Assembly (NCBI RefSeq): GCF_037042905.1
Contig: NC_087251.1
Coordinates: forward strand, 23,872,001 to 23,936,000
From: Lytechinus pictus
Lineage: Eukaryota
Length of the DNA stretch: 64,000 nt
Reading direction: 5' to 3'
The number at the start of each line of letters is the position of its first letter. The stretch's first letter is position 1. Below, one piece after another: positions 876 through 60,599 of this stretch. The notes below the pieces were generated by a model. It was not told where the DNA came from and did not search any database. It worked only from the letters and a program-made list of their open reading frames with translations. Both the position numbers and the translations under genes were made by a program.

Positions 876-1749
<874 letters not shown>

Positions 1750-14982: not shown

Positions 14983-15162
14983 TGCGGTGATGCTGATGGC
15001 GAGACTTGATCAAGAAGGAGCCAGGGGATGGGAGGTGACGGGGGTAAAGCCCCAACTGGTCCGTTTGGTACTACTCCTCTTGTGTCAGAGATTGGTAGTT
15101 ATAGCCACTTTGAAGATACAAATGAACAGTCTAATGCTAAACAAACAGGCACTAGTGATTTT
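14983..15162 (-). other. KLC: Predicted 5' UTR part of the KLC first coding exon
   Basis: Pyrimidine tract plus TACAG acceptor at 15164-15163 on the minus strand. Confidence 0.55.
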
Positions 15163-37931: not shown

Positions 37932-40900
37932 TCAATAAGAATTCAGAATAAATTTTTTGATGAGTAATTTAAATCGGTTTAGATTAGCTGCCTCTTTTAT
38001 TACTCTGTCCAGAGAATTCCAGAGTTTTGGTCCTGTGAAAAATACAGTTTTGCTAGAAAATACTGTTCTACTTTTGGGTAAGTGATAGTCATTTGAATGT
38101 CTCGTATTATATGAATGTAAAGTATTGTTTTTCATAAATTTCTTTTGTAGGACATTAGGTACACTATTTCTATCTAGCTGATACATGAATTGGAATAGTT
38201 GCAAGCGGTACAGGTCATTGACTTTAAGGATACGTTTATGACGAAACAATTCATCTGTATGAGCTCTAAAGGACATATTGCATATTATTCTCAGTACTTT
38301 TTTCTGAAGTAGCAAGACTTTATTGAGTCTCGTTTGAGAGGCATTACCCCATGCCAGAATTCCATAATTAAGATATGGTAGAATTAATGCACAATACAAC
38401 ATGGATAGCGCCTGTGCTGGAAGAGCGTTTTTAAGCTTATTGATGACTCCAATATTTCTTGCCACAGTTTTGCAAATATTGTTGATATGACCATTCCACG
38501 TAAGCTTGTGATCATAGTAAGACCTAAGAATTTGTTGTTTGCACTTCTTTGATTTCAGTATTATCTAAAAGTATTTGATGCGGTAGATGTTTCAATGAAT
38601 GACTAAAAAGCATATAATTAGTTTTTTGCAGATTCAATGACAGTTTGTTGGCTTTAATCCAGTTTGTTACTTTTTTAAATTCTGCATTCATAGTGCTCAC
38701 AAGTACATGTGGATCATGATGTGTAAAGAAAATATTGGAATCATCAGCAAAGAGAATAAATGAGAGAACATGAGATGAATTTTTCATATCATTAACATAA
38801 AGTACAAATAGCAAAGGGCCAAGAATACTACCTTGTGGAATTCCACAGGAAACTGGCCTTGTTGGAGATTCTGATTCATTTACTGTAACAAACTGAATTC
38901 TATCAGTAAGATAACTCCTAAACCATTGTAAAGCTGTCCCTCTGATACCGTAATTTGATAGCTTACATAATAGTATTTCATGATCTATTGTATCAAACGC
39001 TTTTGAGAAGTCGAGGAATAACCCTACAGTGTGATCAGAATCGTCAAAAGAAGTAGATATTTTATTTATTAATGTCAATATAGCATGAGTTGTATTATGT
39101 TTTTCTCTAAAACCGAATTGATTATCACATATAATACTATATTTCTTAAGGAAAGCAACTGTCCTTTTATAAATTATCCTTTCAAGAATTTTTGAGAACG
39201 AAGTTAACAAAGATATTGGGCGGTAATTACTAGTAATTAATTGGTCTCCCTTCTTGAAAATGGGTATAACTTTAGCTATTTTCATCTTCTTTGGGACCTG
39301 GCCAAGCTGCAACGATAAATTAAATATATGAAGCAGAGGATCAGCAAGAGAATGTATAATGTTTTTCACAACTCTATTTGTAATGCCATCATAACCGGGA
39401 GTCTTTTCTGCTTTCAAATTAAATACAATCTCAAGTAATTCTTCTCTATGAACTGGAGTAAGAAATATTGAACTTTCATTTTGTTTATCCAAAAAGTCCT
39501 TAAACGAATTTTCTACAGGCATAATATTTCCAGCTAACTTTGGTCCAATTTGAGAGAAATATGTATTAAATTCATTTGCTATAGAATGAGTATCTTCAAC
39601 CATATTTCCATCTACACATAATTTATGAACAGCACTAGATTTGTTAATTTTGTTTAGGGCCCCATTTATTGTTTTCCATGTATTTTTAAGGTCGTTTTTA
39701 TATGAATTTAATTTTTCTGTATAAAACCTCTTTTTTGCTATTCGGAGAGTAGTTGTTAAGGTATTTTTATAAGACGTGTATCTATTCCTTGAAATATCAT
39801 TTGGATTTGATATATAAGAAACATACATATTATTTTTCCGATTTATAGACCTTAATATCAATTTTGAAACCCATGGGAGCTTTGGAACACGTTTATAATC
39901 GTAATTTCGATATTTCTTTAAAGGAACACAAGAATCTAAGCAGTCATTGAAAGATTTCAAAAATATGTCAAATGAGTCATCGACATTCACATTCGAGTTA
40001 TAAACGTCAGACCAATCAACAGAGCTTAAATCTTCTTGAAGGCGTTCAATATTTTTATCACTAAAGTTGCGACAGATCCTATATTTCTTTTCCATTTTTG
40101 CGAGTGATTGCATTGTTTGGATATGGGTAAAAATAAGAAAATGATCGGATATGTCTGTCGTTACAATGCCAGCTTTCGGAAGAGGATGAGAGTTACAGAA
40201 TATATTATCTATAAGCGTAGCAGAATGATCAGTAATACGGGTTGGTCTAGAAATAATAGGCAAAAAAATAGAAGATAACATTAATTCAAGGAAATCATTT
40301 GTTAAAGAGTGATTACTGGTCAAGAGATTAATATTGAAATCACCAGTGATGATACAATTGTTATTTATCAATTCTCCGTTTTGCAAAAGTTCATTAGTAG
40401 CAAGTAAAAAATCTTCTAGACAAGAAGTTTGAGGAGGTCTGTAGATGACACCTATTAGAGTTTTCTTATCTTTTTGAATTTTTACTTCTACAAATAAGGA
40501 TTCGATGATTTCATTCATATATTCAAATTCATGTCTAATTGCATAATCAAATGAAGACGGAATATATAATGCTAGTCCACCTCCAATTTTATTTTTCCTA
40601 TTGTTTATAACAATATCATAATTCGGGAGGGTGCATAAGGAATTCGGGGTTTCCGTGAACCAAGTTTCAGTAAGAGCAATAATTGGGGGATTGGCAAACT
40701 GTGTATTTTCTAATAATAATCGTAATTTCTCGAAGTTTTGGTTAGCGCTTCTTATATTCAAATGCAAAATAAAAACATCATCTTCTCCAATCAATTTAGC
40801 ATAGTCTTTGAATGAATTTTCTGTATAATATGGAGAAGAGGAAAGATTGTATGCTTTATCATGAATATCGAATTCAACTTGAAGTTCATCAAAATTATTT

Positions 40901-41037
40901 GTAAGGATATCAGTAGAAAATCTATCAAATGGAGTATGATGATTTGAGATAACATTGCTTTTATCTTGATGATTTAGTAATAAGAAATCATCATTATTCA
41001 GATGATAAAAGGGGAAATCACGCATATTATCCACCAT
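37932..41037 (-). pseudogene. LINE ORF2 (APE endonuclease + reverse transcriptase), frameshifted near 38510-38535
   Basis: HLNIRS, LTETW, GVIYRPP, GDFNINL, ISDH endonuclease motifs; NYRPISLL, QFGFR, DFSKAFD, GIPQGSILGPLLF, FADD RT motifs; the ORF continues in 38465-37932. Confidence 0.93.
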
Positions 41038-41418
41038 TATGAAATATAATATATTGCCATTTTAAAACAAAATCTTTGTAAGCTAAGCATATAAAGCATT
41101 TTTTAGATTTGATACCATCATGACCCAAAATTCGAGTTCGGAAAATACTACAGTTGTAATAGTTAACAAAATAAAGATTATCTAATACAATTATTAACGG
41201 GCGATGAAGAATATTTGCGCACAAAAATAAGTAAAATTACCTCCATAAAATGTCTGGTATTGAAACATTATTGAAAGGGCAGTGAAGGAATGCAAAATAT
41301 ACCACGGAAAATAACACAGATATTGAACAATGCGAAAAATTTTGGGACGAGAATTTCATAATAAATGAAAAGAATACTGGAAAATCGAATAACATGGAAT
41401 GGATGAAGGATAGTCCTA

Positions 41419-42308: not shown

Positions 42309-42896
42309 AGGACAAGTCCAACCCAACAAAAAGATGATTTGAATAAAAAGAGAAAAATCCAACAAGCATAACACTGAAAATTTCATCAAAATCAGATGTA
42401 TAATAAGAAAGATATGACATTTTAAAGTTTCGCTTAATTTCACAAAACAGTTATATGTACATCCTGGTTGGTATGCAAATGAGGAAACTGATGTCATCCA
42501 CTCACTATTTCTTTTGTATTTTAATATATGAAATATTCTAATTTTCTCTTCATTTTCAAGTGAAAAAACAATTAATTTCTCCCTGAACATGTGGAATTAG
42601 CATTGTTTATTACTATATGGTTCCGACAAGTTGATCCTTATTGTCAAATCTGTAAAAAATGAAATATTGTGTAATTCAAACAATAAAAAACAAAAGAAAT
42701 AGTGAGGGACATCATCGACTGTCTCATTTGCATGTCACTGATTTGTGCATATCACTGTTTTGTGAAAAATAAGCAAAAATTTATAATGTCATAACTTTCT
42801 TATCTTACATCCGATTTGGATGAAATTTTCAGCATTAAGCTAGTTTGATTTTTCTCTATTTATTCAAATCAACATTTTTCTGAGGTGGACTTGACC
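42309..42896. mobile_element. Kolobok-like MITE, family A (opposite orientation to 4325-4891)
   Basis: TTAA flanks; AGGACAAGTCCA...TGGACTTGACC termini. Confidence 0.85.
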
Positions 42897-44996
42897 TTAA
42901 AGAGCAGAGAAAATTGCATTTATATCACATGACAAACGAGAGAGCTTATACATGTGATGTCACACAATCCTAACTTATAAAACCATTATACTATTGTCTT
43001 TTGGAAGATTCACCAAACATTCATATTTTAAAACCAACTTGATGAAAGGATGAACTTCCCCTCTTTACTTTGCGACGGGTGATGTTGAACCGGCCATACT
43101 GTGTATTCTGAAAAAATGCTATTTTAATAAAGTAAATTAATCTTACGTTAGGGCCAACACATGCCGACGATTGAATTACTTCTACGTATAGAGTGTTGAT
43201 ACACTTCCAATAGACCTCTCAACCCATGTAACTGGAAAAAAAAGGATGATTTTACGCAAACATATGGGAAACAGTATTTCACAAGAGGTCAGAATGGTTA
43301 AAACTGTATTCTTTCCTCCAAAATCAGAATGGTTGAGGTCTGCTTTCACCGTACCAAGACCCGTCCCAATAAGCTTTCTACCATCAGTTTTGACAAGAGT
43401 TATGATGATTTTAATCATTTCAGTTCTTTTCAAAGCCTTGTACAAAAGCTTGGTAACATTTCTTCCAGCTCTCAGACATGGCAAGGCAAATCACCGCACT
43501 TCTGTGAACAAAGATGCAAACAAGCACTTCAATGTCCAAGGTAACACCAACTAACTCATGACATGATAATCATCACCACAGCTTATTTCATGTCAAGAGA
43601 TGGTCCACAAAACTGCATTTAAGACATAGGTTCCTTCAAATACTTGACAATATTTAGAATTTGCATTGTTGTACAAGGACACTTGTCATCGTTTTCAAAA
43701 ATATGTATATTTTGGACTGAAACAAGAAGAACAATGTAATGCATAAATAATTAGTTTATGACACAATTCATCTGCAGTTTAATAGACATGAGTAGCATGC
43801 AATAACAATACTCATGAACAAGACATTCTTGGCTTGTATTCCACAGTAAAAGGTTTGCACAAAATACAACAACTTCAGAATGACTATTCAATTTCAACAA
43901 ACATGGAAAGCAATAAGCATATAAGATGTAGTTTTCCAAGAAGTTACAATTTCAATTTGTTTCGGTAATATCTATTATATTCAATGGTTTGATTGTTTTT
44001 TTTATTTTTTATGTTGGTTTGATTGTCTTGATAAGCAATACAAGGTCCTACTGTATAAGATTTAGATCCTTGAATTAATTTCTTGATATCAAGTAAGCTT
44101 TTGACAACTGTAACAATACCCCCCCCCCCCTTAACAGTTTACTTCATTCACCCATCCACTTAAATATTTGACCCTATAAAAGATGTAACAATCATAGGCA
44201 GCATAACATAAACCACCTTTGCAGAAGAAAAGTAGTAACATTTATGTCTCTGATATGCATTACATAAACAACAAATGACAAGCTGATATATGACAAAATT
44301 TCAGTTACCTTGAAAATGGAATAATATACTGTGGGATATATATATCCAAGAGGACTATGACAGTAGCATTTCTACAATGTACATTTCCTACATAAACAAT
44401 GTATGAAGTGGTGTGCTCTTTGAGGTTTTCAATAATTGGCTGTTTGTTTTTTTAATTTCAAAGCATACTTTGCATCAATATATTCAACAATTAATTAGTG
44501 CACAATAGATTATAAAAACAATTCCAAATTTGATCTTACTGCATTCAAAAACAAAAATTAAGATCCATAGTATCACAGTCTCAAATATAAACTATTTTGG
44601 ACTCACAAGTCAAATAATCATTTTCTGATTTTAAAATACCATTCATTTCATCATTCATTTTCTCATTATTTCTTCCATTTTTGTCATTGAATGGTAGCAA
44701 CAATATAATCACACATTGATAGGACATCCAAACTTAACTTACATCTACCCATAATGCATTTGAATATAATATGAACTGTATATTTACCATGAAAATGAGA
44801 AAAATGCCTTTAATAGCATGAGAAAGCAAATGCATCCATTCGTGTTGTGGATCATACTGATTTCACTGTGCAACCTACGACTAAAATAAAATTCCACCAC
44901 AAAATACCCGGAGATAACACACTCACCATAGCACAAATCATCCCCTTTCTAGTGAAAGCCTGAAAAATAGAACATATCTAAACTTGTGAGAAGATG

Positions 44997-45062: not shown

Positions 45063-45182
45063 TTAGATATCATCAATGTCAAGGTCCTCTTCTTCCTTTG
45101 CAGGTGGTGGAGCAGCAGGTGTCTTGTTTGGTTCAGCACTCTCCACCTTGAGACCAGCTCCTCCACGGTTACTGAAAGCAAC
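45063..45182 (-). CDS. EIF5: eIF5 terminal coding exon 9
   Basis: VAFSNRGGAGLKVESAEPNKTPAAPPPAKEEEDLDIDDI-stop, with the conserved acidic DIDxI-type tail; total spliced CDS 1269 nt = 422 aa. Confidence 0.94.
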   Translation of the reverse strand, partial: VAFSNRGGAGLKVESAEPNKTPAAPPPAKEEEDLDIDDI

Positions 45183-45924
45183 CTGTAAATAGATCAAACA
45201 ATCAATATTTCAATGAAATGAAGAATAAAAGGAATCTCAATACTAAAAAAAAAAAAAAAAAAACAATACAAACATTATTCAAAAGGAAAGGAAGCATTGT
45301 TTCCATGACATTATTATTGTTATTTATTTGGCATTTCAAACAACAAACAGAACCATATGTGTTTACTTGTGTCATAATCAATAGTTTACTTTACTGCACA
45401 TGCAGAGAGACTTGAATTTTCACAATTTTTAAGTTTACTTGTTATTTTATCACAGGCAATCTCTGGTTAAATGCCAAAACTAAGAGCCATTCGGATTGTA
45501 ATCAATATTTCTTGAGGTGCCGGCACAAATACGCTAAACTCAAAGATTGCTAGCTTGTAGGTGATCTCTTTTTTTTTCAAATTATATTACCAGATATAAG
45601 GTTTAAAAAATAGAGCTGGTAAAGCAGATGTGCACCGAATACTTCTAAGGTTTTTAATAACGATTGCACAACTCATCGTATCATGAAATTGTTCCACATA
45701 CTTTCTAATTTATGGGGAAATCTAAAAAATTCAACCTTTGTTAACATTTCAACATTGATGACGCTACTGCTGCCACTGTCGGAAAAGCAGTGCCTATGCA
45801 GGCAAGACAAAAATTGTGTTCTTTATGATGCAAAAGCAGGATTTCCTTTAGATCATTATTTGCGTTTTTACTGCCTGTTTGAAAGAGACGTCAAAGAACT
45901 AAGAATATCACAAGAAATACTAAC

Positions 45925-46041
45925 CACGACTTCATCCTCACTGGACTCTTCTTCTTCTGCCTCTTTGAGCCATTTGATGAAAGGAGCTGCTTTCTCATGA
46001 ATCTGTTGCATTATCTCCTTTGAAACATACTTCTTAGATGG
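45925..46041 (-). CDS. EIF5: eIF5 coding exon 8 (AA-box 2)
   Basis: [39 protein letters not shown]; 117 nt. Confidence 0.96.
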
Positions 46042-46621
46042 CTAAAGAAACACACAAAATATCAATAATTCAGGATGCATAGATCCATTGAAATAGTCAA
46101 GTACCATTAATAAATCGGTAGCATGACAAGAATTCAAAAGATACTTTAAAAAAGAATGTTAATCTTTTATTGAAAGGTAGAACTATTAAATATTTTTAAC
46201 ACAATATTTTAATAGTGTTATGATATACTTAAATTTGATAACTATTTTTATTTGGTGATTTGTAAACATTTCTTTTTTTTTAGAGGGGGGGGGGGGCTTT
46301 AAGTAATGAATACAATTTAAATTGTAAACAAATGACTGGCAGATAAGTACACGATAGATTTTTCTAAAGAAAGACAAGAAATATAGCCTAGGTTTTCAAC
46401 TGTTGTAACTAAAAATGTAAGTTACTTGACATATCTTTTAGAACCTGGTTGATTGAATCTCTAAAATACTCAGAATGGAGATTTGCACGGGAGGTTTGCC
46501 AGAGAGAGCGGTCTAGATTATGAGCAACAGAGCTTAAAACGTAAACCCTTAAATCTAAAAACCTGGGGTTCTTCTATGGTTTCTGACAGGAGTCCATTCC
46601 AAACAGTAAACTTAAGCTTAC

Positions 46622-46786
46622 CTTTGCAGCCCAGGTTAGGATGACCTCTTCATCGACAAGGTCAAGATCATAGACAGCCTTGAATATTGAAGGTACCTTC
46701 GGAACCAGAACCTTGGCATGTAGAGCGATCAGCTGTTCAATACCACCAAGGAAATACTTCTGACCCTTAGGATTGTCATTCAAAAA
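46622..46786 (-). CDS. EIF5: eIF5 coding exon 7 (W2 domain, AA-box 1)
   Basis: FLNDNPKGQKYFLGGIEQLI...YDLDLVDEEVILTWAAK; 165 nt. Confidence 0.96.
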
Positions 46787-47019
46787 CTGAAAGAAAAAAA
46801 ATTCATTTATTTATTTGTTGTTCACCAAGAGGTGGACTGGGGAGAGTTTAAAAAAGAGTGGAAATTGGCTGCGGCTCAGACCATCAAACAAAACTTTATT
46901 TTTAAACAATCATAAGTGTCCATTTAGGATTTGCATTTGATTAATTAAGATAACTTTAAACTAAACTCTTTATGCAAAAAAATAACAACCTATGATTTGA
47001 ATTGATTGGTTGGAATAAA

Positions 47020-48360
47020 AACAAGTGGAACGCCTCTGGCAGTCTCGCCTGCATTACGCGATTTAATATAGCAGCAGTGCTAACTTTGAAAACTACTATA
47101 AAATAATCATTCACAAAAACACCATTCATATAATGACATAATACCACGTTCATTGACCATAAATGACATTTGAACGGTGACATAAGACTTGTCAACTACA
47201 CCCATGTCCACATTTCATTCACTCTATCAATAAACTTTCAAAGTTATGATGGCAATTCAACAATTACCCCAACATGGCCTAAGTTTATTGACCTTAACTG
47301 ACCTTTGACCTTGGTTTTGTGACCTGAAACTCACAGGGGATGTTCAGTGACACTTGATTACTCTTATATCCCAAGTTTTATGAACTAGATCCATAAACTT
47401 TCAGAGTTAGGTTGGTAATTCAACAAATACCCCCAACACGGCCAAAGTTCATTGACCTTTAATGACCTTTGACCATGGTCATGTGGCCTGAAACTCGTAC
47501 AGGATGTTCAGTGATACTTGATTACTATTATGTCCAAGTTTTATGAACCAGATCCATAAACTTTCAGAGTTAGGATGGAAATTTAACAAATACCCCCAAC
47601 ACGGCCAAAGTTCATTGACCTTAAATGACCATTGACCATGGTCATGTGACCTGAAACTTGCACAGGATATTCAGTGGTACTTGATTAAACTAATGTCTAA
47701 GTTTCATGAACTAGATCCATAAATTTTCAAAGTTATGATGGTAATTCAAAAAATACCCCCAACTTGGCCAAAGTTCATTGACCCTAAATGACCTTTGACC
47801 TTGGTCATGTGACCTGAAACTCAGGCAGGATGTTCACTCATACTTGATTAACCTTATGTCCAAGTTTCATGAACTAGATCCATAAATTTTCAAAGTTATG
47901 ATAGTAATTCAACAAATACCCCTAACTTGACCAAAGTTCATTGACCCTAAATGACCTTTGACCTTGGTCAGGTGACCTGAAACTCGAGCAGGATGTTCAC
48001 TAATACTTGATTAACCTTATGCCCAAGTTTCATGAACTAGGTCCATATACTTTCTAAGTTATGATGTCATTTCAAAAACTTAACCTTCGGTTAAGATTTT
48101 GAAAATAATTCTCCCAACATGGTCCAAGTTCATTGACCCTAAATGACCTTTGACCTTGGTCATGTGACCTGAAACTCAGGCAGGATGTTCAGTAATACTT
48201 GATTAACCTCATGTCCAAGTTTCATGAACTAGGTCCATATACTTTTTAAGTTATGATGTCATTTCATAAACTTAACCTTAGGTTAAGATTTGATGTTGAC
48301 GCCGCCGCCGTCGGAAAAGCGGCGCCTATAGTCTCGCTCTGCTATGCAGGCGAGACAAAA
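47020..48360. mobile_element. Helentron-associated/DINE-1-like element with an internal ~163-bp tandem array, in the eIF5 intron between coding exons 6 and 7
   Basis: AACAAG start; subterminal GTCTCGCCTGCA; ~6 repeats of ~163 bp; (GCC)n; terminal hairpin GTCTCGCTCTGC-TAT-GCAGGCGAGAC; A-run flanks. A 3' fragment lies at ~45680-45812. Confidence 0.75.
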
Positions 48361-48676
48361 AAAATGCTAGTGCCAGGGTCACTTTTGCATATATACAGAG
48401 CTTTATTAGATATAACTGACTTACATCTGGTGGGTGTTTCATACAGTGGTTCATTAAGTTACGCACGACTCTACGCATGACTGGAACATGTTCACAGGTC
48501 ATAAATCAATTACACAGGGAAATCACATAGCACAAGAAAGTATCACCAGTCGTGCGTCTTATGAACAGCTTTATAAAACACCCACCAGCTTTTAATAATC
48601 CAATATGAAAAAATAAAAATCCAATGTTAACATAACCACAAATCAGTAAAAGTGCAATATCATGAACAGTATTTAC

Positions 48677-48838
48677 CCTCAAGAAATGATACTGATACTG
48701 CTTGAGCTGTTTCAACACCTGCTCATCAAGGAGAAGTTCAGCTAAAATAAGAGCTCCTTTGTCCTTTATGTCGAGACGCTCTGCTTCTACCAAAAACTCC
48801 TTGTCGCACCCCTTTAAGTCACCTCCTGCTTTCTTTGC
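48677..48838 (-). CDS. EIF5: eIF5 coding exon 6 (W2/HEAT domain)
   Basis: AKKAGGDLKGCDKEFLVEAERLDIKDKGALILAELLLDEQ...HFLR; 162 nt. Confidence 0.95.
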
Positions 48839-48968
48839 CTAAAATTGTTATTCAATGAAACAAAATGGTTAACACAATTTTATATTCAAATCTGGTGAAA
48901 ATCTAAACACATATATCGTTCACTTAGCATGTTATGATCTAACAACCTCTTTACAGCTAACTTTACAT

Positions 48969-49139
48969 TTTGTTAACAAATTTTTGGCATTACTCCCATT
49001 TGTTTAAGATCAGTATGCTCGATCTGTAATGAAAATCATAAGATCATAAGTCAGAAAAAAATGATCTTAAGATTTTCATTACAGATCGAGCATACTGATC
49101 TTAAACAAATGGGAGTAATGCCAAAAATTTGTTAACAAA
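48969..49139. repeat. Near-perfect foldback (79-bp arms, 13-nt loop) in an eIF5 intron
   Basis: 48969-49047 vs 49061-49139, one mismatch. Confidence 0.95.
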
Positions 49140-49551
49140 TTATAATTTTCTCCTATTAAAAAGCCTCTTAATTTACTAACTTAACATTATATCAAATTAA
49201 CAGACTGCATTAACACAAGTGTGCATGAGCTGAACTCTAGTCTGTATCTAAAATCAAATTCCCTGCCTAACTACCAAGTCAAATTGTTAAGCAATTTCTT
49301 TTTCAATCGGTTGAAAAATCAAAATGTTTTACATGCACATTTTTTAATGAATTGCTGAGTACATGAAGATTGCTGAAAATAACTTGATACCATCTATCAT
49401 ACTATCCTATTGTGTAAAGACTTGTTATATTAACAGATGAACAGTTTCTTTAACAAAATTACTGTCAGCCATTCAGATTGAAGGATTTCAGTAGCTTTTA
49501 ACAGTTATTGCATATTTGTTATCATAATAAATTGTTTTTATTTTTTTTTAC

Positions 49552-49710
49552 CTTTACAAATTTATAGAAGATGTCGAGTCTCTCCTGTCCCGTCTTCTCT
49601 AAGTCATCATTGAGGGTCAAGCCCTTAGCACCACTGCTCAAATCCCCCATTCTCTCTCGGATAGCCTCTTCACTGGTATCAACTGACCACTCCTCATCAT
49701 CACCATCATC
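49552..49710 (-). CDS. EIF5: eIF5 coding exon 5
   Basis: DDGDDEEWSVDTSEEAIRERMGDLSSGAKGLTLNDDLEKTGQERLDIFYKFVK (DWEAR-type linker motif); 159 nt, AG/GT. Confidence 0.95.
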
Positions 49711-50016
49711 CTAGATGGACAGAACAAGAGAAATACCTTCATGACGTACCTAAACCTTGCATCTCGAAGTTCATAACAGATACACTAAATGGCTGATGGT
49801 TGTAAGGTTGTAATGGTTGTAAGGGCTAGACACAAGACAGCTGTATAAATGTCTTCTGCTTCTGACTCTATACCCTTTAAATTCTTTTAAACTCAACACG
49901 GAACTCAGAGACCATCATATTACACATAGACAATGGGTGATTTCAAGTCTCAGTGTTCATTCTATTATTGCAGCCTCGAGTACCCCCCCCCCCCCATAAA
50001 AAATGAAAATGCTTAC

Positions 50017-50235
50017 TAAGTTAGCATCTTCCTCTTGACAGGCATCACCCTCTCCATTCTGTTGTTTACTCTGAGACTTCTTCCCCTTGCGCTCAGTCTT
50101 TGACGATCCAACGCTCTTTGGATCATGTTCAGGGGGGTTCTTGATGATGAATGTACTCAGTTTATGACGCTGGTCCACAATACCCACGTGACCGCAGGCA
50201 ATACAACGCTGACCAATGTTGCCTTTCTTCACAAT
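50017..50235 (-). CDS. EIF5: eIF5 coding exon 4
   Basis: IVKKGNIGQRCIACGHVGIVDQRHKLSTFIIKNPP...; completes the C4 zinc ribbon; 219 nt. Confidence 0.95.
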
Positions 50236-51214
50236 CTGGTGGAATTATAATGGCATGGCCAACAACAAAAAATTAACAAATGCCAAAACTCCAAATCACA
50301 ATGTTATAAAAGAAATACCTGTATGACATTTTCCATTAAATCTCATTTAAAAATATGGCATAGTACATGTCCCCTTGAGCATGGCGCAGTGATGCATTAC
50401 AGAACACAATCAAATGAGAACCTAAGTGTGATTTTATATCACCCATAACTCTTACCGACTAAAACTTTACAAACATTAAAACCATGTGTGAAACATACAT
50501 CCCTCTCAAAATTAAGTTAAAATAAGTGCATGAGTAATTGAATTTGAAATTATCAACACCAGATATTGGCTATAAACAGTCAAGAAATAATTCTGGGGAC
50601 TTACACATGCACACTAACCAAAACAACTGGGCACTCAGCGTCTCAGCCCCAATATTATACAATATGTGAATGCATTAAACTCATCATTTGAGAAAGATAC
50701 AAGAGAATTTCAATAATGAATTCCTGTTTATTATATTTTCCTACTTGCATTTTTCATCCCATACTAACATTTGGCATAACACTCTTTCAAATTTCAAAGT
50801 ACAGGCCTTAAAAATGCCAAGGGAATATGAAGGCAGATGGAATAACTAGATGAAAATGTCAAACGGAAAGTTTATCCTGACATCAAGTTGGTTTTAATGA
50901 AAACAGAAAACTTAGAGAACAGTATCCATGAAAGTTTAACTGAAATTCATCAAAAACTAGAGTTGTCAATTTAAAACCCTTTCTATTTTGTAATGCCGCC
51001 TGGAAGCAGCTGCCCATTACGTCATATAATATAAATATATATCTCTCATAGAATCATGTAGGAAATTACTTGTCAAATGATAAACTCAATGTAAAATCAA
51101 TTTCATTTTTCTGAGAAATCACATTTTAAGTCATATATATATGAAGGATTTAAAAAACCAACTACTAAACCAACTATGGGTCAGAATGAACTTGAAGAGA
51201 TGTCTTAGTCTTAC

Positions 51215-51387
51215 CAGAAAGGTTTCGGGATTGTCACACTCGGGACACAGCACATATTTCCTGATGAAGATATCTAGCATCTCCTGAAGTTTGTTAGCAT
51301 CATGCGAGCCATTTACAATGAAGCGATTATTCTTGAAATCAAACTGGGTTTGGGCACCAAGCTCACAGCCAAAAAACTTTGTAGGGT
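51215..51387 (-). CDS. EIF5: eIF5 coding exon 3
   Basis: (Y)[16 protein letters not shown]...[36 protein letters not shown]; 173 nt, phase-consistent. Confidence 0.97.
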
Positions 51388-51616
51388 CTGTGCACACAAG
51401 ATACAATAAGAGGAAATTGGTATAATAGATGCATTCTACAAATACTGAAGTGGTTGATATCAAAACAAAGCACATATTTGCAAGGATTCTATATTTTCGA
51501 ATTGAAACCATTGTAGTACTTTTAAATTCTATGGCGTAACAAAAAAACATACAGGTGTATATTACATCTTTTTCAATCCACATGTGACTTCCTGTACCCA
51601 ACCATTTTCCATTTAA

Positions 51617-52231
51617 AGGGGAATCCAACCCAACCTAAAACTTGTTTTTATAAGGAAAAGAAAAATCAGACAAGTTGATAGGTGAAAGTTTGAACAATAT
51701 TGGACAAACAACAAGGAAGTTATGAATTTTTAAAAGTTGTAAATATTGGTAATCACTATACCCATGGAGACTTCAAATTGGCTGCATATGGGATGTCATA
51801 GTGATGTAAGGCAAGGACTACTCTTCCATGTACTCCAATACATATTATGGCTAAAATGTCATTTTCCCCAAAAGTTTTATTTCAAATCATATTTTTATTT
51901 CATGAGGACATAAAACAATATACCACCTGGGTTATATTTAGATTACTGCCCCTGGGGAATGGGTACTTAGGAGAAAACCACAAATTCCTGGAGAAAACCA
52001 CAAATTCCTGATAATAAAGTACATAGCCTATGGGAAAGTTGTCCTTGCCCCTTGTCATAATTTACTTACTCAGTTGCCAATTTGAAATCTACATAGTATT
52101 AGTGATCTCAATTTTAAAGCAGCTATAACTTTCTTATTGCTTGTCTGATTTCTTTGAAACTTTCGCCATTCTGTTAAATTCATTTTTCTCCTTCCCAACA
52201 CAACATTTTATGGCCAAGGCTGGATTCCCCT
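51617..52231. mobile_element. Kolobok-like MITE, family F
   Basis: TTAA TSD; AGGGGAATCCA...TGGATTCCCCT termini; internal 21-bp tandem duplication near 51970-52010. Confidence 0.85.
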
Positions 52232-52705
52232 TTAAAAAGAATTTTCTTTAAGCATACTGTTTAACATACATGTATTGTTAATTATGTCCTCATAATGAAA
52301 AATACCATACGGAGTCAAGTTCACTGTTAGTATTGTAATAATACTGTATGGAATTTTGATATCACTGTACATGTATAAGGAACTCTGTATAAAATGGTAG
52401 AAACAAGATTATGCATGACTTGTTAAAATCATATTTAGAGCTGTTGTGATAATTGAACTGATATTTATAAACTGCATACCAGCAAACTGAACTGCCTTAT
52501 CTAGTCCATTCCACATGCAGAATGGTACAATGTACACTCATATGCAGCCCACTTTATTGAAACAAATTTTGAAACCACATGTATCTAATAATCCCCAATA
52601 TGAAAAATCCTATATCAAAAATTTTGATATCATTTGAAAATACCCAAGAAGCAAAGAAAGAATTACAAATTATCAAATCAGTCAAAAGATAAAAACTTGA
52701 TGGTG

Positions 52706-53951
52706 CCCGGGCCCAGCGGACGGGTGCAATTAACTTGGTGATAACTCCCGATTTGTTTTGAATTTTCAACCGTCATCCGTGCACGTGGAGACAGAGTTAA
52801 TTATATCATGGAAAATTTGCTTGCTTATATTTTCAATGTATGTTAACGAAGTTCCCTAAAATTTTCAGGACTTACCAAAAATAATATCATTCTATCCTGA
52901 AAAAATTATATCAAACGATCAAATAGTTATAATTTCTCGCTTACTTTCATTTTCGTCGTCTCCAAAACATGCCCTCAAACTTTTTCCAGACATATCTCTA
53001 CCCTGCATTGAATATTCATGAGATTCGCTGTGCATATTCATTAGATATGTACGGATTTGCATGCCAAGTTTTCGCTGTGCCGAAGACTTATTTTTTGAGA
53101 AATCACTGTATGAAAATGGGGTTCTGACACAAAATAACAAGGAGTTATGATACCAACAAACCCAATTCCCACGCACACGGCCACAGTATGTCCGGGTCCA
53201 AGTGTTTACATGCACTCGAACTGTACTTACCAAGCTGAATGAAATACAAGGTAGGCATAGAAATTTCTCCTTTTCTCTTTCTCTGTATTTTACTGAACTG
53301 ACATACGATTACCATGATCAGTGATGAAATGAAGCTTACGAAAAGCTTAATTTCACTGGTCAACTTGCTAACACATGCGCTGCAAAACCAAACTCTCGCC
53401 AAATTGTCTGATACATGAATAGGGATCTCGAACGCTACCACTCACACTAGTGCAAGGTTAGTACCACAAAGAACCGCGTTGGCAGTGGATTTCTAACTAG
53501 TGGGTTGCGCGTGCTGTGACGCCACTTCTAGCGTCCACAACACACAACTTCTATGGCTTGATATACAAGAACTGATTTTCACACAAAGTTACCTTAATAG
53601 TTACTTTCTGACATATCTCAATCTCGTTCATGCCAAAGACCTAAAAATGTGAAATTTAAGCGATTTTTTTTTTACTTCTTATTTTCATTTTTTTCATGGA
53701 AGGTTTTTGACATATTTTTCATATTTTTACTCCACAAACGACAAAACTAACTTAATAAACAGTCAAAGTAATCATTCTTCTTTCCAAAATAAAAACATCA
53801 CTCAGATTCATGGTCATTTACAAAAGTTAAGGCAGTTTTGTAGCGACACTTTCTCAGCGGTTTCAGGAAACCCTCTCGTTAACTTTGAGCGTTTTCGAGG
53901 TCAACTGAAAACAAAATCAGCCGATAATTGCACCTCTCCACTTTGCCTGTG
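52706..53951 (-). mobile_element. Degenerate DNA transposon remnant (possibly Chapaev/Transib-like)
   Basis: 27-bp imperfect TIR (20/27), one end CACAGG; CpG-rich; decayed CxxC...CxxC reading frame; no TSD found. Confidence 0.4.
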
Positions 53952-54010
53952 CCTTCTAGGTTTGAGCATGACATTGATATCATCTACGCATTGCTGAATG
54001 TGATACTTAC

Positions 54011-54092
54011 ATGTAGGTGGTCTACATAAGGACTTGCCAATCTCCACCATGTTTATGATGACAGTTTTAATGCCATTCCCACTTCCCTCAAC
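54011..54092 (-). CDS. EIF5: eIF5 coding exon 2
   Basis: [27 protein letters not shown]; 82 nt with AG/GT boundaries, phase 1 end. Confidence 0.97.
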
Positions 54093-54365
54093 CTGAAAAC
54101 AAAACAGATCAATGTAAGAGAAATAATTAGGATGCTACATATCATCGCACCAAGAAACTACACTATATAAGGGAAAGCACTAAAATTAAAACAGTAAAAT
54201 ACAGTTTGTGTTTGAGGATAGTAGCCCCAATGGTTGTTTACATGTATTATCTAAGCAGACCTGTGATACTGGCACATGAATTGTATACTTTCTTTTAAAA
54301 CACAATACACCAACTACAGAATGATTTGTCCTTTTAATTTATGTTATGTCGTTCGGTCAACAAAC

Positions 54366-54437
54366 CTTGGCTAGGAGACGTGGCATCTTGTAGCGGTAGA
54401 ACTGGTCAGTGATCGCTCTGTTGACATTGAGAGACAT
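54366..54437 (-). CDS. EIF5: Eukaryotic translation initiation factor 5, coding exon 1
   Basis: [24 protein letters not shown] with the GAP arginine in FYRYKMP; ATG in good context (ACAATGT); GT donor at 54365. Confidence 0.97.
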
Positions 54438-54627
54438 TGTGATCTCCCGTTTCTTCTACTACTGGTTTTGTGAATTTGGTTTTTATTGGTCCGCCTGGAA
54501 CAGCGCAGATGTGAAGGATGTGTGAAATTATGCGCCTGTGAAGACATAAACCTGTCTGGGGGTTGCTTTTGTATTCTATATGGATGCCTCTGGCACTCGG
54601 CACAGGTGAATCTCACCGACAGTAGTT
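54438..54627 (-). other. EIF5: eIF5 5' leader portion of the first coding exon
   Basis: TTTTACAG acceptor at 54629-54628; contains a poor-context uAUG at 54547. Confidence 0.85.
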
Positions 54628-56097
54628 CTGTAAAACAAATACGTGTAAAGGGTATATAGAGTCAGACGAGATTTTACACATACAATCACGCTTGCAATTA
54701 TTGCAATAAATACAAGTTTAGACCCCTTAAAACTTTATGAAACTGATTATGTAGGGTTTGGGCATATTTCCTAACATGGCATATTAATATAGTTAGCTAT
54801 GCATTAACATCCTATTATAACATTGCATGTGTGAACTACTAGTATATTGTTTTTAAAAATATCTTATTGTGGAACTAATTAAGTATTCCAGGATATCAGT
54901 GAGGATCATGTACTTCCTGTCTTCCTCCCTTCTACACTCAATGTGACCACACATTTTAATGTGATGCCACACATGTCTGCTACATAACCAACATTTGGTG
55001 CTTGCTTTCCAAAAACTGCACAAAGGGTGACTGACAATATCCATGCATAACCAAAAGTTTCATTGGCTGAAATGCAGCAAACATAAAGTCTTAGTTTATA
55101 ATTTTCAATATTTTTGGAAAGTTTGGTATAATGGCAGATCCGACGGGGTGGATGGGCCAGCCTACCATACCCGATGGAGGGGAAAAAATGACAATTTTGA
55201 GACAAGACAATACCACAATAAAAGTGTTTTTTTTATTAAGTTCTGATTGAAGTAATGCAATTTTTGAAGTGGTTCCCCTTGTGACCCCCCCCCCCCCCTC
55301 CCCTGAAGTCAATCCTGGATCTGGCATTGTAATAGGAAAGGCCGAGTTGGACAATTTTACTCTACTACATTATATTCAATTTCTTTCTGGTAATACTATC
55401 CAAAACATCCTGCATAAATCTGTTGAACCATTGCCATATGGTTGGTTACATCCACCATATGTCCAATATATTACAGGGAGACATTGTAAGAGATTAACAG
55501 CTTCACAAAGCATTTTATATTCAAACACATGCATTTTTTTAATTTCTCACTTTCTGACATAAATAAATATGCACTTTAAAATCAATCTGTACCCCTTCAT
55601 GATTTCATAAATCTATATTTATTTTCATCTACTTTCACCAATACATCAGGCAGAAGCTGGTTCTATTTCCAATAAATCAGGCCAAGATCTGCTTAAAATT
55701 TATTGCAAACCACAGACATCTGAATCCGGGCTGGGGTAGCCTTGAGGTGTTTAGACTCTTTGGAGAGTACAAATCATGCTAGTGAGAGACAAATCTCCAC
55801 AACGCCTGACAACTTATCACTGTCAATCACCACACACATACAAAGCCTGGAAAATCACTTTCTTGCTGGCCAAGAGATGCATGCAATGATGCAGGTGCAA
55901 ATTACAAGACAATCCAAAAAAAAAAATTATTTCAATTATCTTGTAAATGCAATAGCCAGTCTAACCAAATGCATGTTTTAAACAGCAATTTCTTTCCTTG
56001 CCATTCTTTAAAACTAAGGACATGAGTTTCTCACAGAAAAGTTATAATTTATTATGAACATTTGAAATGGTCATATTGAATGTTCACAAGGCTGATG

Positions 56098-56329
56098 GTA
56101 GTATGGGTGGTTGGGTGTCAAGACAATGTAAAATTTTGAAGCCTTCATTATTGTCTTTGGATTACACTAAAATCATGAATTCCATAGTTGCAATAATCGT
56201 CTAATTTGTTCTTTATATTGCCTAACATTTTGTACTAAATATTTATGAAATTTAGCTTGCTAATTTCTTCAAATGGCTGTTAAAAATTGATTGTCTGGAC
56301 ACACAACCTGTGCAGACAACTGGGTATAC
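56098..56329. mobile_element. Family E element (diverged copy)
   Basis: Aligns by eye with 34536-34791. Confidence 0.7.
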
Positions 56330-56538
56330 CATTACCTGGTAGGAAATTGATTTTACAGACCTTTTACATTGTGATCTCTGGCTCTGTGTGACTAAATATA
56401 TGATGCAAAGTGCACTCTGATTAGAAAATGATTTTAATAGGGGCAATATTAAAAGGCCTGGAGTAACTTCAGTTTGAGCAAGGCCACTAGCAATCTCACT
56501 TAACTTGTATTTCCTACATGTAGTAGCAATCTAACATA

Positions 56539-57576
56539 TGAAGGTGAGCCCAATGACTGTGCACCTATTTAACTTAAGATTTAACATAAATTTCTTTTTA
56601 TTTCACAAGAATTTTTAGTTGATAATGTTAATCCTAACATTAAAGTCCACCCCAACAAAAAGTTTATATGAATAAAAAGAGAAAAATCCAACAAGCATAA
56701 CAATGAAAATGTCATCAAAATCAGATGTAAAATAAGAAAGTTATGACATTTCAAAGTTTTGCTTAATTTAACCAAACAGTTAAATGCATATCCTGGTGGG
56801 TATGCAAATGAGACCGATGATGTCATCCACTCACTATTTCTTTTGTATTTTATTATATGAAATAGGGAATATTCTATTTTTCTCCTTATCATCAATGAAA
56901 CAACGATTAATTCTTCTCTGAACAAGTGGAATGAGCATTGTTTTATACTATATGATTTAGTCAAGTTTGTCCTTATTGTCCAATCTATAAAAAATTAAAT
57001 ATTGTATAATTCAAACAATAAAAACAAACGAAATAGTGAGTGACATCATTGACTGTCTCATTTGAGTTGTGCATATCACTGTTTTGTGAAAAATAAGTTA
57101 AACTTTAAAATGTCATAACTTTCTTATTTTACATCCGATTTTGATGAAATTTTCAGTGTTTTGCTAGTTTGATTTTTCTCTATTTATTCAAATTAACATT
57201 TTTCTGGGGTGGACTTGACCTTTAATAAGTGAGCCAAAAATTTCATTAAAAAATTGAAATATACAATTTTCTTGGAAAAAACCCCGGCTAGTCATTTTCA
57301 GATCAAACAAAAAAATGGTGTCCCATGGCTGCGCACTGATTCACTTTACACATAAATCAGGGATTTTGAGGAGAAAGGATGCATTTAGAGGCTGTCACAT
57401 GAAATGCCTAAAATTCCTTATTTTTCCACTTTTTTTATTCAGATTTTTTAATGAATACCTTTCTATGTATTGCATCGGTAAAATTGTGGTCTGTTGCATA
57501 TCTTCTTTTACTAGAATTGCACAAATATGTGTGTGCGCAGACAAGGGGGACTGCGCAGACTTGGGGGACCATACCA
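56539..57576. mobile_element. Family D MITE containing a nested Kolobok family A copy (56644-57221)
   Basis: Family D sequence is interrupted at TTAA (56640-56643 / 57222-57225) and resumes afterwards. Confidence 0.8.
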
Positions 57577-58140
57577 TAACTTGTATTTTAATTCACTCTC
57601 CAAATACTCCACTCTCCAGCAATGTCTGGAACTTGATCGAGACTCCAGGCTACATGTAATCTAAAAGGTCATGTCCACCCAAGAAAAATCTTGATTTGAA
57701 TCAAGAGAAAAATCAAACAAGCAAAATGCTGAAAATTAATCAAAATTTTGCAGCATTTTTGCTTGATTTTTCTGTTAAAATTTTGCTTATTTTTCACAAA
57801 AAAGTCTTTTTTATTTTATTAGGCCAGGTAAATACAATATTTCAATTTTTACAGATTTAAAAATAAGGAACAACTTCACTGTTCACCACAAAGTGTTATT
57901 AGGCCTATGTTCAGAGAGGAATAAAACTTTCAACAATCTGAATGAGGACCAAAATAGACCTAGGGCTAGGCCTATATTAGACCGATAAATAGGTCTATTT
58001 CTGTCAGGGATATGCTCCGCTGATCTTTTAGAAGGAAAGTAGAAATCTCGGGGGCGAAAGTTTCAGGTTTTTTGGTGGTACATGCAGATGAATGGGATGG
58101 AATCCCTGGCTCCGTGGAGAGTAAGCATACATGTACGTTA

Positions 58141-58798
58141 GTATACCCAGTTGTTGTGTGTCTGGACAGGTTGTGTGTCCGGACGATCAATTTAGAAAGT
58201 CATCATCAATTTTTATTACAAAATGTTAGGAAATATTATAGAGAACAAAATAGAAGATGATTACAACTATCGAATTCATATTTTTAGTATGGTAGTGGAT
58301 CGTATTACCGAACACTTTTCATGAGTTCAATCATATCAAACACATTATTCTCATCAAATTCATCAAACTTTCACCATAAATACACAATTAGGCTACCTAC
58401 AAAATATAAATGTGAAAAAATTTTGCCGAAATCGTTTTTCTGTTTTACGATATTAGCTTCCAATCGAACCCCTCTTCTCATGTGAAATATTTTAGTCACT
58501 TGAAAAAGGTATCGTATTACCGAACGTGTGTTTTCTATGGGAAAAATTGAGATTTTTTTTTACCATATCTTATTATTTTTTAAGACTTTGAAAATGTGTT
58601 TTTGACCATTTTTCATCATCTTTCTATTCAGTTTCTCTTTGAAAGAAAGTTGCAAAGTTTTAAACGTATGTAATTATTTTCTGACGTGTATGATGCGCGC
58701 GTTCGGTAATACAATCACTCACTATACTTACAATCCAAAGACAAAAAAGAAGGCCTCAAAAATATAAACTGTCTGGACACCCGACCCCCCCATCCTAC
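58141..58798. mobile_element. Family E element containing a nested family C MITE (58290-58724)
   Basis: GTATACCCAG...CATCCTAC ends; TA-flanked insert. Confidence 0.8.
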
Positions 58799-59061
58799 AT
58801 GATTTTTACTCGCCTCCTGACTAATCCGTCGCCTCATTTGCATACCGACCAGGATGTAAAATAGGCCCTAACTATTTTGTGAAATTAGGAAAAACTTTTA
58901 AAATGGCAAAATGTCTCAATTCTCAATTGTTTGATTTCTCTCTTCCAAATCCAATCCAAGTTTCAATTCTTCATGACTGTCTTTTTATTTTAATTTCAAA
59001 CATGTCAAATCAACTTTTTGTTGGATTGGAACTTTCCTTTGACTAAAGTTATGATACTTAC

Positions 59062-59266
59062 TGTTTATATTGCAAAAAGACATAAACACGACGAGGTGTG
59101 GAAGGTTTAGAAAGAAAACTTGGCAAGACCAGATGGCTTAATTTCAGCTGAAACGAAAAGGCTACACAAAAACGCAGCACCTCTGCTGCTGCCCAAGGCA
59201 ATGGAACTCGTGTTGATCCGCGAAGAACAATCGACAGACGTTTGCTTGTAAAGTGGAAATCTCAAC
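59062..59266 (-). other. EIF5: eIF5 5' leader exon 2 (predicted)
   Basis: TTACAG acceptor at 59268-59267, GTAAGT donor at 59061; carries a GTTTATGTCTT uAUG in frame with the next exon's uAUG. Confidence 0.8.
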
Positions 59267-59378
59267 CTGTAACGAATAAAAAATTAATGAAATACAGTAT
59301 TCGATTGTAGAAAATTAATGAGCATGAAATACTTCAAATCATACTGCGAATAAATGATACTCAAAATGGATTTCTTAC

Positions 59379-59440
59379 CACTCATTCCAAGAGAGCAGTA
59401 AAAATTTACGCCAACAAACGCCGCACGAATAGAAAATACA
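59379..59440 (-). other. EIF5: eIF5 5' leader exon 1 (predicted; TSS approximate)
   Basis: G|GTAAGA donor at 59378, 112-nt intron to the acceptor at 59267, CpG-rich promoter-like sequence at 59400-59560. Confidence 0.55.
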
Positions 59441-59700
59441 TGCGTGGAACAATCTAGGCAATATTATAGAGTGCGTGCATTTGCGCAATATCTTTGGCAA
59501 GTGCGTGTGGGAATAAGAGCTCAATCGACCACGCACTACAACAGTTGCGTCATAAGGCTTAGTCTTAAACCACAGACCTTTCATTCAACCTCGGCAAGAT
59601 ATTTTGTAGATAATTTAGAGAGGTGGTATATGAGACGTGGGGGGGGGGGGGGGCAGGCGCGTAGCCAGGGGCGGTGGGGGCGGTCACCCCCCAAAAAAAA

Positions 59701-60036
59701 TACAGAACAGAGTTTAATATCGTTCATACTTTTGCATATAGCATGGCACGAATTTAATTCCTCCCCCTTTGAGAAGATACTTTGCCAAAAATTACTTGCT
59801 GAAAAGCGGAAGAAATATCATTTGGGGACCCAGGGAGTGACGGTAATGTTTACCCGCTCCGAACAGAAGAGCCAAAATTTTGTGTCAATGCAATATAATA
59901 TATATATATGCAAGTAATATATATATATATCATTCACTTGATAAAGACGGTATGTACTCGTCGAAAATTTATGGACTTCAATCAATTTTGTTGGATTAAA
60001 GCGTGAAAGTTTCAACCTTGTTTCTCTTTCTCTCTC

Positions 60037-60303: not shown

Positions 60304-60495
60304 TGCATTGACACAAAATTTTGGCTCTTCTGTTCGGAGCGGGTAAACATTACCGTCACTCCCTGGTTCCCCAAATGATATTTCTTCCGCTTTTCAGCAA
60401 GTAATTTTTGGCAAAGTATCTTCTCAAAAGGGGAGGAATTAAATTCGTGCCATGCTATATGCAAAAGTATGAACGATGTTAAACTCTGTTCTGTA
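59701..60495. repeat. ~200-bp near-identical inverted repeat with a (CT)n(TA)n-containing spacer, upstream of the eIF5 promoter
   Basis: 59701-~59905 vs ~60290-60495; lies inside a possible larger element with CAGGCGCGTAGCCAGG (59654) / CCTGGCTACGCGGTTG (61177) ends. Confidence 0.9.
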
Positions 60496-60599
60496 TCGCT
60501 GCACATCCATCTCCTGTCTTGTTTTGCGCCATTGATTTGAAAATTTGAATATTACTGAACTTTCTTATTCAAACAAAAGGAGGCGCTCGATATGAGCGA

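What the first reader, a model, noticed from the sequence alone, without database searches (positions are those of the whole stretch)
54371..59083. Intron-spanning inhibitory uORF with twin poor-context AUGs: eIF5 start-codon-stringency autoregulation
Seen: splicing 59062 to 54627 puts two AUGs (59083 and 54547) in one frame. Both sit in the identical 11-mer GTTTATGTCTT (U at -3, U at +4), while the eIF5 AUG has A at -3. The uORF runs 92 codons (MSFCNINKLLSVRFTCAECQRHPYRIQKQPPDRFMSSQ...CHVS) and ends 67 nt inside the eIF5 CDS, so ribosomes using it cannot reinitiate. No other AUGs occur in these two exons upstream of the main start. Known: vertebrate and other eIF5 mRNAs use poor-context uAUGs so that excess eIF5 relaxes stringency and represses its own synthesis. 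Inference: this circuit is intact in this echinoderm, and an unspliced ORF scan misses its first AUG.
Basis: partly seen in the sequence, partly recalled or inferred. Interest (0 to 1): 0.75.

Follow-up and report, generated by a model that had tools for sequence, protein, structure and literature searches.

The report
Sea-urchin eIF5 self-limiting upstream reading frame
The sea-urchin mRNA for the start-codon-checking factor eIF5 carries a spliced, 92-codon upstream reading frame with two weak start codons that likely lets excess eIF5 shut down its own synthesis, a circuit already known from humans and fungi, and the intron that splits this frame lies 22 bases after its start in human, urchin and six other animal loci.

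Summary
Real, and mostly known. The gene is Lytechinus pictus eIF5 (422 of 422 residues). The 59062/54627 junction is present in 4 of 4 sequencing runs laid. It joins AUG 59083 and AUG 54547 into a 92-codon uORF that ends 67 nt inside the CDS. This is the eIF5 stringency sensor of Loughran et al. 2012; the shared 11-mer is largely the family motif. The response to eIF5 dose is inferred, not tested.

Not found in my literature searches: the intron sits 22 nt after the long uORF's AUG in urchin, human and 6 of 11 genomic animal loci (control 2 of 786). Three loci of one other clade have it at 25, 28 and 34 nt, same phase. The uORF stop is at the homologous TAG in 15 of 42 loci. So the uORF is probably one ancient animal element, and its AUG lies where an exon junction complex is deposited. 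The scan's index showed no earlier eIF5 finding.

The parts
59379..59464 (-). First leader exon (5' end approximate; contigs reach 59464 in X1 and X24, less far in X5 and X21)
   Evidence: joint 59264/59377 with cut +2 in 4 of 4 runs; GT..AG at 59378/59267
59439..59441 (-). Cap-near AUG, poor context (C at -3, U at +4); 11 codons in the window allele, stop lost in the X5 and X21 alleles (19 or 21 codons)
59383..59385 (-). AUG of a 3-codon uORF (Met-Ser-Gly-stop), G at -3, A at +4; spans the first intron, stop TGA at 59264-59262
59267..59378 (-). First leader intron, 112 nt, GT..AG
59062..59266 (-). Second leader exon; its last 22 nt are the start of the long uORF
   Evidence: (pieces 59062-59264 in all 4 runs)
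59077..59087 (-). First AUG of the long uORF (59083-59081) in GTTTATGTCTT; U at -3, -2, -1 and +4
   Evidence: 10-mer equals fish and amphibian uAUG1
54628..59061 (-). Phase-1 intron inside the long uORF, 4434 nt, GT..AG, starting 22 nt after the A of the AUG
   Evidence: 4 of 4 runs; same spacing in human and 6 of 11 genomic loci
54366..54627 (-). Third exon: rest of leader (190 nt) and first 24 codons of eIF5
54541..54551 (-). Second in-frame AUG of the long uORF (54547-54545) in GTTTATGTCTT; 58 codons to the same stop
54435..54437 (-). Main eIF5 AUG, A at -3, U at +4
54371..54373 (-). Stop (TAG) of the long uORF, +1 frame, ending at CDS nt 67, 5 nt before the first CDS junction and 87 nt before the second
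   Evidence: homologous TAG in 15 of 42 non-duplicate loci
45063..54437 (-). eIF5 coding region, 9 exons, 422 aa
   Evidence: identical to L. pictus eIF5 P0036, which hits Pfam eIF-5_eIF-2B and W2

Best explanation
The spliced leader of sea-urchin eIF5 holds a 92-codon upstream reading frame with two weak start codons that overlaps the eIF5 start, and it likely acts as the known start-codon-stringency sensor by which excess eIF5 would cut its own synthesis. Shown: gene identity, three leader exons, frame, contexts, overlap, and conservation of the layout in other animals. Inferred from human and fungal work: most scanning ribosomes leak past AUG 59083 and AUG 54547 and start at 54437; when eIF5 rises (or eIF1 falls) more start at the two weak AUGs, run past the main AUG in the +1 frame, stop at CDS nt 67 and make no eIF5. 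Also inferred: that stop lies 87 nt or more before seven later junctions, so uORF translation should trigger nonsense-mediated decay and reinforce the feedback. The 3-codon uORF in the first exon most likely only lowers output a little, because ribosomes can resume scanning after it.
For: Junction in 4 of 4 runs. 92 codons, +67 overlap, main AUG A at -3. Protein 100% identical to L. pictus eIF5. Loughran 2012: uAUG1 has U at -3 in 98.8% of 337 homologs; vertebrate uORF over 90 codons and overlapping; human uAUG contexts 5.9-18.3% as efficient as optimal and raised 4-6 fold by eIF5. AUG 59083 10-mer equals fish and amphibian uAUG1. In 21 other spliced animal-type eIF5 leaders the longest uORF is 50 codons or more in 21, has U at -3 in 19, has two in-frame AUGs in 16 and overlaps the CDS in 16. 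Same intron spacing as human and 6 of 11 genomic loci. None of the 4 listed allele changes inside the uORF makes a stop or touches an AUG. eIF5 mRNA is an NMD target in Cryptococcus (2.6x in upf1 mutant) and Neurospora.
Against: No functional data for any echinoderm: no ribosome profiling, no reporter. No leader of another urchin species could be fetched, so conservation within echinoderms is untested. The long uORF's AUG is not the first AUG of this leader, unlike the usual pattern in Loughran 2012 (though 11 of 21 other leaders also have an earlier AUG). That urchin ribosomes read U at -3 as poor is assumed from other eukaryotes; I could not derive an urchin start consensus (no genome held). 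The urchin eIF1 start context, the other half of the loop, could not be checked.
Confidence: 0.85

Rival explanations
1. Add-on to the main reading: the intron is held 22 nt after the weak AUG because splicing deposits an exon junction complex on that AUG. In the first round of translation the complex would slow scanning there, favour uORF starts and send the new mRNA to decay, so stringency would set mRNA fate as well as protein output.
For: 22-nt spacing in window, human and L002, L033, L027, L031, L045, L042, which fall in three separate groups of the tree; control 2 of 786 sites, or 8 of 1095 in the window. The part downstream of the junction varies much more (190 nt to the main AUG here, 205 in L002 and L033, 237-321 in L045, L027 and L031). 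Lim et al. 2018: the complex is deposited 20-24 nt before a junction, and uORF translation peaks where it co-locates with the uAUG.
Against: Three loci of one clade keep the phase but have 25, 28 and 34 nt (L020, L001, L043), so 22 is not obligatory. Only about 14 of the 22 nt are free of AUG-context and donor constraints, and only multiples of 3 are tolerated, so plain inheritance of an old intron can explain the pattern. The complex acts only before the first round. Many fungal and plant homologs autoregulate by layouts that I did not examine.
Confidence: 0.17
2. ATF4-like stress input: ribosomes translate the 3-codon uORF, resume scanning, and when eIF2-alpha is phosphorylated regain initiator tRNA too late for the two weak AUGs, so eIF5 would be favoured under stress or in the unfertilised egg.
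For: A 3-codon uORF with G at -3 precedes a long overlapping uORF, the ATF4 layout. No change is listed at this AUG in the X5 and X21 alleles, whose contigs span it (116 rows not shown). eIF2-alpha is dephosphorylated after fertilisation in urchins (one passage).
Against: The inhibitory AUGs are weak, so most ribosomes pass them anyway and little is left to gain by delay (inference). The apparent first exon of L002 and L033 has no AUG (read by eye). A short purine-context uORF before the long one is in only 3 of 21 other leaders, all 9-12 codons and in one clade. The neighbouring AUG 59441 changes length between alleles, which looks like drift.
Confidence: 0.1
3. The uORF is a fixed damper (constant leak plus decay), or acts through its peptide, and does not sense eIF5 in urchin.
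For: No dose-response data here. The first residues resemble each other across animals (MSFCNIN here, MTFLCSE in L002, MSFFSTE in L027).
Against: Conserved poor context is what makes human uAUGs dose-sensitive. The peptide found no homologue and no Pfam family; 2 of 4 allele changes in it alter a residue; Loughran report little peptide conservation between phyla.
Confidence: 0.07
4. Chance ORF produced by a guessed splice.
For: AUG depletion and the open frame alone are not significant.
Against: Junction in 4 of 4 runs; context, intron spacing and stop position shared with distant animals.
Confidence: 0.01

Closest known systems
eIF5 autoregulation by poor-context inhibitory uORFs (Loughran et al. 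2012, PMC3326321; parts 1-4 of 5 of the main text read, supplement parts 1 and 3 of 3 read, part 2 only by term search)
   Same: Long uORF (92 codons; vertebrates over 90) overlapping the CDS; U at -3, -2, -1 and no G at +4; several uAUGs; intron inside the uORF 22 nt after its AUG as in human (read from their oligos 2 and 5); main AUG with A at -3.
   Different: Two weak AUGs in one frame instead of three human uAUGs; two further AUGs upstream, one with G at -3. Searches of their supplement for Strongylocentrotus, Echinoderm, Paracentrotus, Lytechinus, Saccoglossus, Branchiostoma, Nematostella, Acropora, Amphimedon and Ciona found nothing. The parts I read do not discuss conservation of the intron or of the stop position.
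Cryptococcus and Neurospora eIF5 uORFs (Wallace et al. 2020, PMC7049704; passages read)
   Same: Poor-context uAUG ahead of a strong main AUG; mRNA is an NMD target.
   Different: There uORF translation and NMD were measured; here they are predicted.
Leader junction and uAUG juxtaposition (Lim et al. 2018, PMC5961209; passages and section 24 read)
   Same: uAUG at a conserved distance from a leader junction, at the EJC site.
   Different: Their comparison is human versus mouse and names Eif5 only as a gene with regulatory uORFs; here the spacing recurs across distant animal groups.
ATF4 two-uORF reinitiation switch (review PMC5972666; passages read)
   Same: 3-codon uORF followed by a long uORF that overlaps the CDS.
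   Different: The inhibitory AUGs here are weak (that ATF4 uORF2 has a strong context is recalled, not from a call), and the short uORF is not seen conserved.

Membership tests
eIF5 stringency-sensing uORF leader (Loughran 2012) | Main ORF encodes eIF5 | tested here: met
   422 of 422 identical to L. pictus eIF5; Pfam PF01873 and PF02020
eIF5 stringency-sensing uORF leader (Loughran 2012) | uAUGs lie in the mature leader | tested here: met
   junction and both exons in 4 of 4 runs
eIF5 stringency-sensing uORF leader (Loughran 2012) | AUG of the longest uORF has U at -3 and no G at +4 | tested here: met
   GUGUUUAUGU and AGGUUUAUGU; compare
eIF5 stringency-sensing uORF leader (Loughran 2012) | Longest uORF is too long for reinitiation or overlaps the CDS | tested here: met
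   92 codons, ends at CDS nt 67
eIF5 stringency-sensing uORF leader (Loughran 2012) | Main AUG in a better context than the uAUGs | tested here: met
   A at -3; U at +4, as in the human main AUG oligo
eIF5 stringency-sensing uORF leader (Loughran 2012) | Typical, not defining ('almost invariably' in the paper): the first uAUG starts the longest uORF | tested here: not met
   AUGs 59441 and 59385 come first; 11 of 21 other leaders also have an earlier AUG
eIF5 stringency-sensing uORF leader (Loughran 2012) | Output falls with eIF5 and rises with eIF1, through the uAUGs | not testable with these tools
   needs reporter assays
eIF5 stringency-sensing uORF leader (Loughran 2012) | Ribosomes translate the uORF | not testable with these tools
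   only contigs were available
ATF4-type delayed reinitiation leader | Very short first uORF with a usable start, then a long overlapping uORF | tested here: met
   3 codons, G at -3, then 92 codons
ATF4-type delayed reinitiation leader | Inhibitory uORF start strong enough to catch most reinitiating ribosomes (recalled feature) | tested here: not met
   both AUGs have U at -3 and +4; such contexts gave 6-18% of optimal in human cells
ATF4-type delayed reinitiation leader | Short uORF conserved in relatives | tested here: inconclusive
   kept in the alleles seen; no other echinoderm leader; 3 of 21 other leaders have a loose match
ATF4-type delayed reinitiation leader | Induced by eIF2-alpha phosphorylation | not testable with these tools
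   needs experiment

The most novel reading that the evidence does not exclude
The eIF5 inhibitory uORF is a single element as old as animals, and selection has held its intron 22 nt after the weak AUG so that the exon junction complex lands on that AUG, and its stop just before the first coding junction. Start-codon stringency would then be read in the first round of translation and decide whether each new eIF5 mRNA is kept or destroyed: a splicing-set, decay-coupled layer of the eIF1/eIF5 loop, testable directly in human cells.
Probability: 0.17. Interest if true: 0.7.

Novelty: new member of a known kind. Interest (0 to 1): 0.36.

Why it matters
As a circuit it is known; this adds an echinoderm case with transcript support. 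The comparative result is the useful part: intron phase, AUG-to-intron distance and stop position are shared among distant animals, which suggests that the animal eIF5 uORFs are one inherited element although their peptides do not align. It also gives a cheap test in human cells of whether a junction complex sitting on a weak AUG changes its use. Loughran's human reporters kept an intron at that site, so intron dependence was not separated in the parts I read.

Tried and rejected
Run search: no holder on record as RNA was listed; the four runs laid are contigs, so start site, strand and level are not shown. Whole genome not held: no eIF1 or BZW check, no urchin start consensus. uORF peptide: no homologue, no Pfam hit. 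Fold of exon 54366-54627: z -1.15, 25 of 200 shuffles as stable, no sign of a special structure. AUG depletion and open-frame tests not significant. Twin 11-mer as a local duplication: rejected, since GUUUAUGU is the family motif. Naming the lineages of the metagenome loci failed: searches gave no species names for them; 'coral-like', 'sponge-like' and 'flatworm-like' are recalled labels. The tree was used only for grouping; its window row had a frame slip after codon 51 from a wrong exon end, corrected and not re-run. Searches were wrong-frame translations. L008 and L037 (vertebrate by match to the human oligos) gave no candidate first AUG in the DNA held. Literature searches: eIF5 + sea urchin + uORF (4 papers, listing only); eIF5 + uORF + intron position + conserved + metazoan (1 paper); EIF5 + exon junction complex + upstream AUG + pioneer round (4), seen as listings except the papers named. 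None of the listings or passages seen describes an echinoderm eIF5 uORF or the 22-nt spacing; most subscription journals are outside the library. PMC8892498 has no sea urchin or echinoderm mention; PMC6387300 has no eIF5 or uORF mention.
Full report
Observation. The region is on the minus strand. GTTTATGTCTT occurs twice in the window, at 59087 and 54551. Splicing 59062 to 54627 gives a 92-codon ORF from AUG 59083 through AUG 54547 to TAG 54373-54371, 67 nt inside the CDS that starts at 54437 with A at -3. I laid 4 of the 24 runs listed on 53900-59640. All 4, from 4 studies, show the joint 54627/59062 with canonical ends, and also the joints 54366/54092 and 59379/59266 (cut points resolved). 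The runs are contigs and only guessed to be RNA, so they show that the joined form exists, not its level or start. X24, of unknown kind, holds both joined and intron contigs.

Gene and organism. Nine exons from 54437 to 45063 give 422 aa, identical at 422 of 422 positions to L. pictus eIF5 (P0036), 97.9% to L. variegatus and 91% to S. purpuratus.

The leader has three exons and, counted from 59464, is 481 nt with four AUGs. AUG 59441 (C at -3) lies close to the contig starts; its 11-codon frame loses its stop in the X5 and X21 alleles and becomes 19 or 21 codons. AUG 59385 (G at -3, A at +4) opens Met-Ser-Gly-stop across the first intron, 179 nt before AUG 59083.

Comparison with the known system. 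Loughran et al. 2012 (PMC3326321) found uAUGs in nearly all of 337 eIF5 homologs, U at -3 in 98.8% of first uAUGs, a vertebrate uORF of over 90 codons that overlaps the CDS, repression of a leader reporter by eIF5 and induction by eIF1. They also proposed decay as a reinforcement. Their Figure S1 gives GUGUUUAUGU for most fish and amphibian uAUG1, identical to AUG 59083, and human uAUG1 and uAUG3 share GUUUAUGU. The twin motif is therefore the family context. Their animal panels are vertebrates, arthropods, nematodes and molluscs; ten names of other groups were not found in the supplement (part 2 of 3 was searched, not read).

Other animals. A pattern scan of metagenome contigs gave 49 eIF5 first coding exons; none groups with the urchins in the tree, which held 37 of them. 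Of 34 loci with an ORF of 100 codons or more I kept 21 spliced leaders (dropped: 4 unspliced or genomic, 4 with leaders under 200 nt, 5 near-duplicates). The longest uORF is 50 codons or more in 21 of 21, has U at -3 in 19, has two in-frame AUGs in 16 and overlaps the CDS in 16. The urchin layout is thus the common animal layout.

Stop position. In 15 of 42 non-duplicate loci, and in the window, the +1 frame ends at the same TAG, formed by a codon ending in TA before Ala. Such codons are 35 of 490 Ile or Leu codons before G in the control. Among 28 loci whose +1 frame runs past the NVN motif 15 have it, against 1 of 14 where the frame closes earlier (Fisher P 0.006; the loci are related, so this overstates). 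The three vertebrate loci stop one codon earlier; others stop 6 nt earlier or 9 to 102 nt later.

Intron position. The human oligos 2 and 5 (the methods say the native boundaries were kept) place the human intron 22 nt after the A of uAUG1, read by eye. The window has 22 nt too. Of 16 genomic loci I kept 11 (dropped 3 duplicates and 2 with under 250 nt upstream). Six have a U(-3) AUG with an open frame to a donor at exactly +22: L002, L033, L027, L031, L045, L042. Control: 2 of 786 such AUGs in downstream and antisense DNA, 8 of 1095 in the window; 0.3-0.9 hits were expected among 130 upstream sites. The donor pattern was widened to GT[AG]A after L031 was seen, and the six loci form three groups, which gives roughly P 5e-5 to 1e-3. 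The inferred splices make sense: L002 and L033 give 98 codons in frame with a second U(-3) AUG and end at the homologous TAG; L042 gives 89 or 112 codons to the same stop; L027, L031 and L045 give 55-80 codons that end before the CDS. These junctions are predicted from genomic DNA, not seen in transcripts. Against a strict rule: L020, L001 and L043, all in one clade, have candidate introns at 25, 28 and 34 nt, in the same phase, and L008 and L037 show no candidate in the DNA held. Lineage labels are recalled (coral-like L002 and L033; sponge-like L027, L031, L045; flatworm-like L001, L020, L043) and no call named them.

Mechanism. Most likely: leaky scanning past two weak AUGs; more eIF5 relaxes stringency, diverts ribosomes into the uORF, and they stop inside the CDS in the wrong frame. 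The stop is 5 nt before the first CDS junction and 87-1082 nt before seven more, so decay is predicted by the 50-55 nt rule (recalled); fungal eIF5 mRNAs are NMD targets. All functional steps are inferred. Two add-ons are open. First, 22 nt is within the 20-24 nt site of exon junction complex deposition, and Lim et al. 2018 report that uORF translation peaks where the complex and the uAUG coincide; the three exceptions and simple inheritance argue against (0.17). Second, the 3-codon uORF gives an ATF4-like layout, but weak inhibitory AUGs leave little to bypass and only 3 of 21 other leaders have a loosely similar uORF (0.10).

Verdict. Observation confirmed, interpretation supported, a new member of a known kind. 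Interest 0.36: the circuit is described, and the added value is the apparent animal-wide conservation of intron phase, spacing and stop, which I did not find in the searches named under Tried and rejected. Supplements of Lim 2018 (Table S8, Figure S11) were not opened and may list the Eif5 spacing for human and mouse.

Noticed in passing
window 37932-41061, minus strand: LINE-type element: an 845-codon open frame with endonuclease and reverse transcriptase hits, followed by a 210-codon frame in another phase.
   Followed up: partly
window 14608-15009 and 873-1310, minus strand: Exons that look like kinesin light chain (label recalled; Pfam gave none for the first and a weak coiled-coil hit for the second).
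   Followed up: partly
window about 56588-57355 (inside the uORF intron) and about 42320-42900: Very high-copy interspersed repeat (summed depth above 100,000); a similar stretch lies downstream of the gene (seen by eye).
   Followed up: no
window about 59700-59900 and 60320-60520: Inverted repeat pair upstream of the first exon, enclosing TA and GA microsatellites; two opposite-strand ORFs share the same peptide. Looks like a fold-back element beside the promoter.
   Followed up: no
window about 47200-48300: Tandem array of roughly 160-nt units in an eIF5 intron (seen by eye).
   Followed up: no
window 54413: Allele difference Ile9Val in eIF5 in runs X5 and X21, silent in the uORF frame.
   Followed up: partly
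window 54427: A third AUG in the uORF frame, U at -3 and +4, 10 nt after the main AUG; it could catch ribosomes that leak past the main start.
   Followed up: no
   Followed up: no
L023, L025, L030, L021: In this clade the overlapping uORF uses the +2 frame rather than +1: the overlap is kept although the frame has switched.
   Followed up: no
L042 about 250-50 nt before the main AUG: A predicted second intron inside the uORF, downstream of its second AUG.
   Followed up: partly
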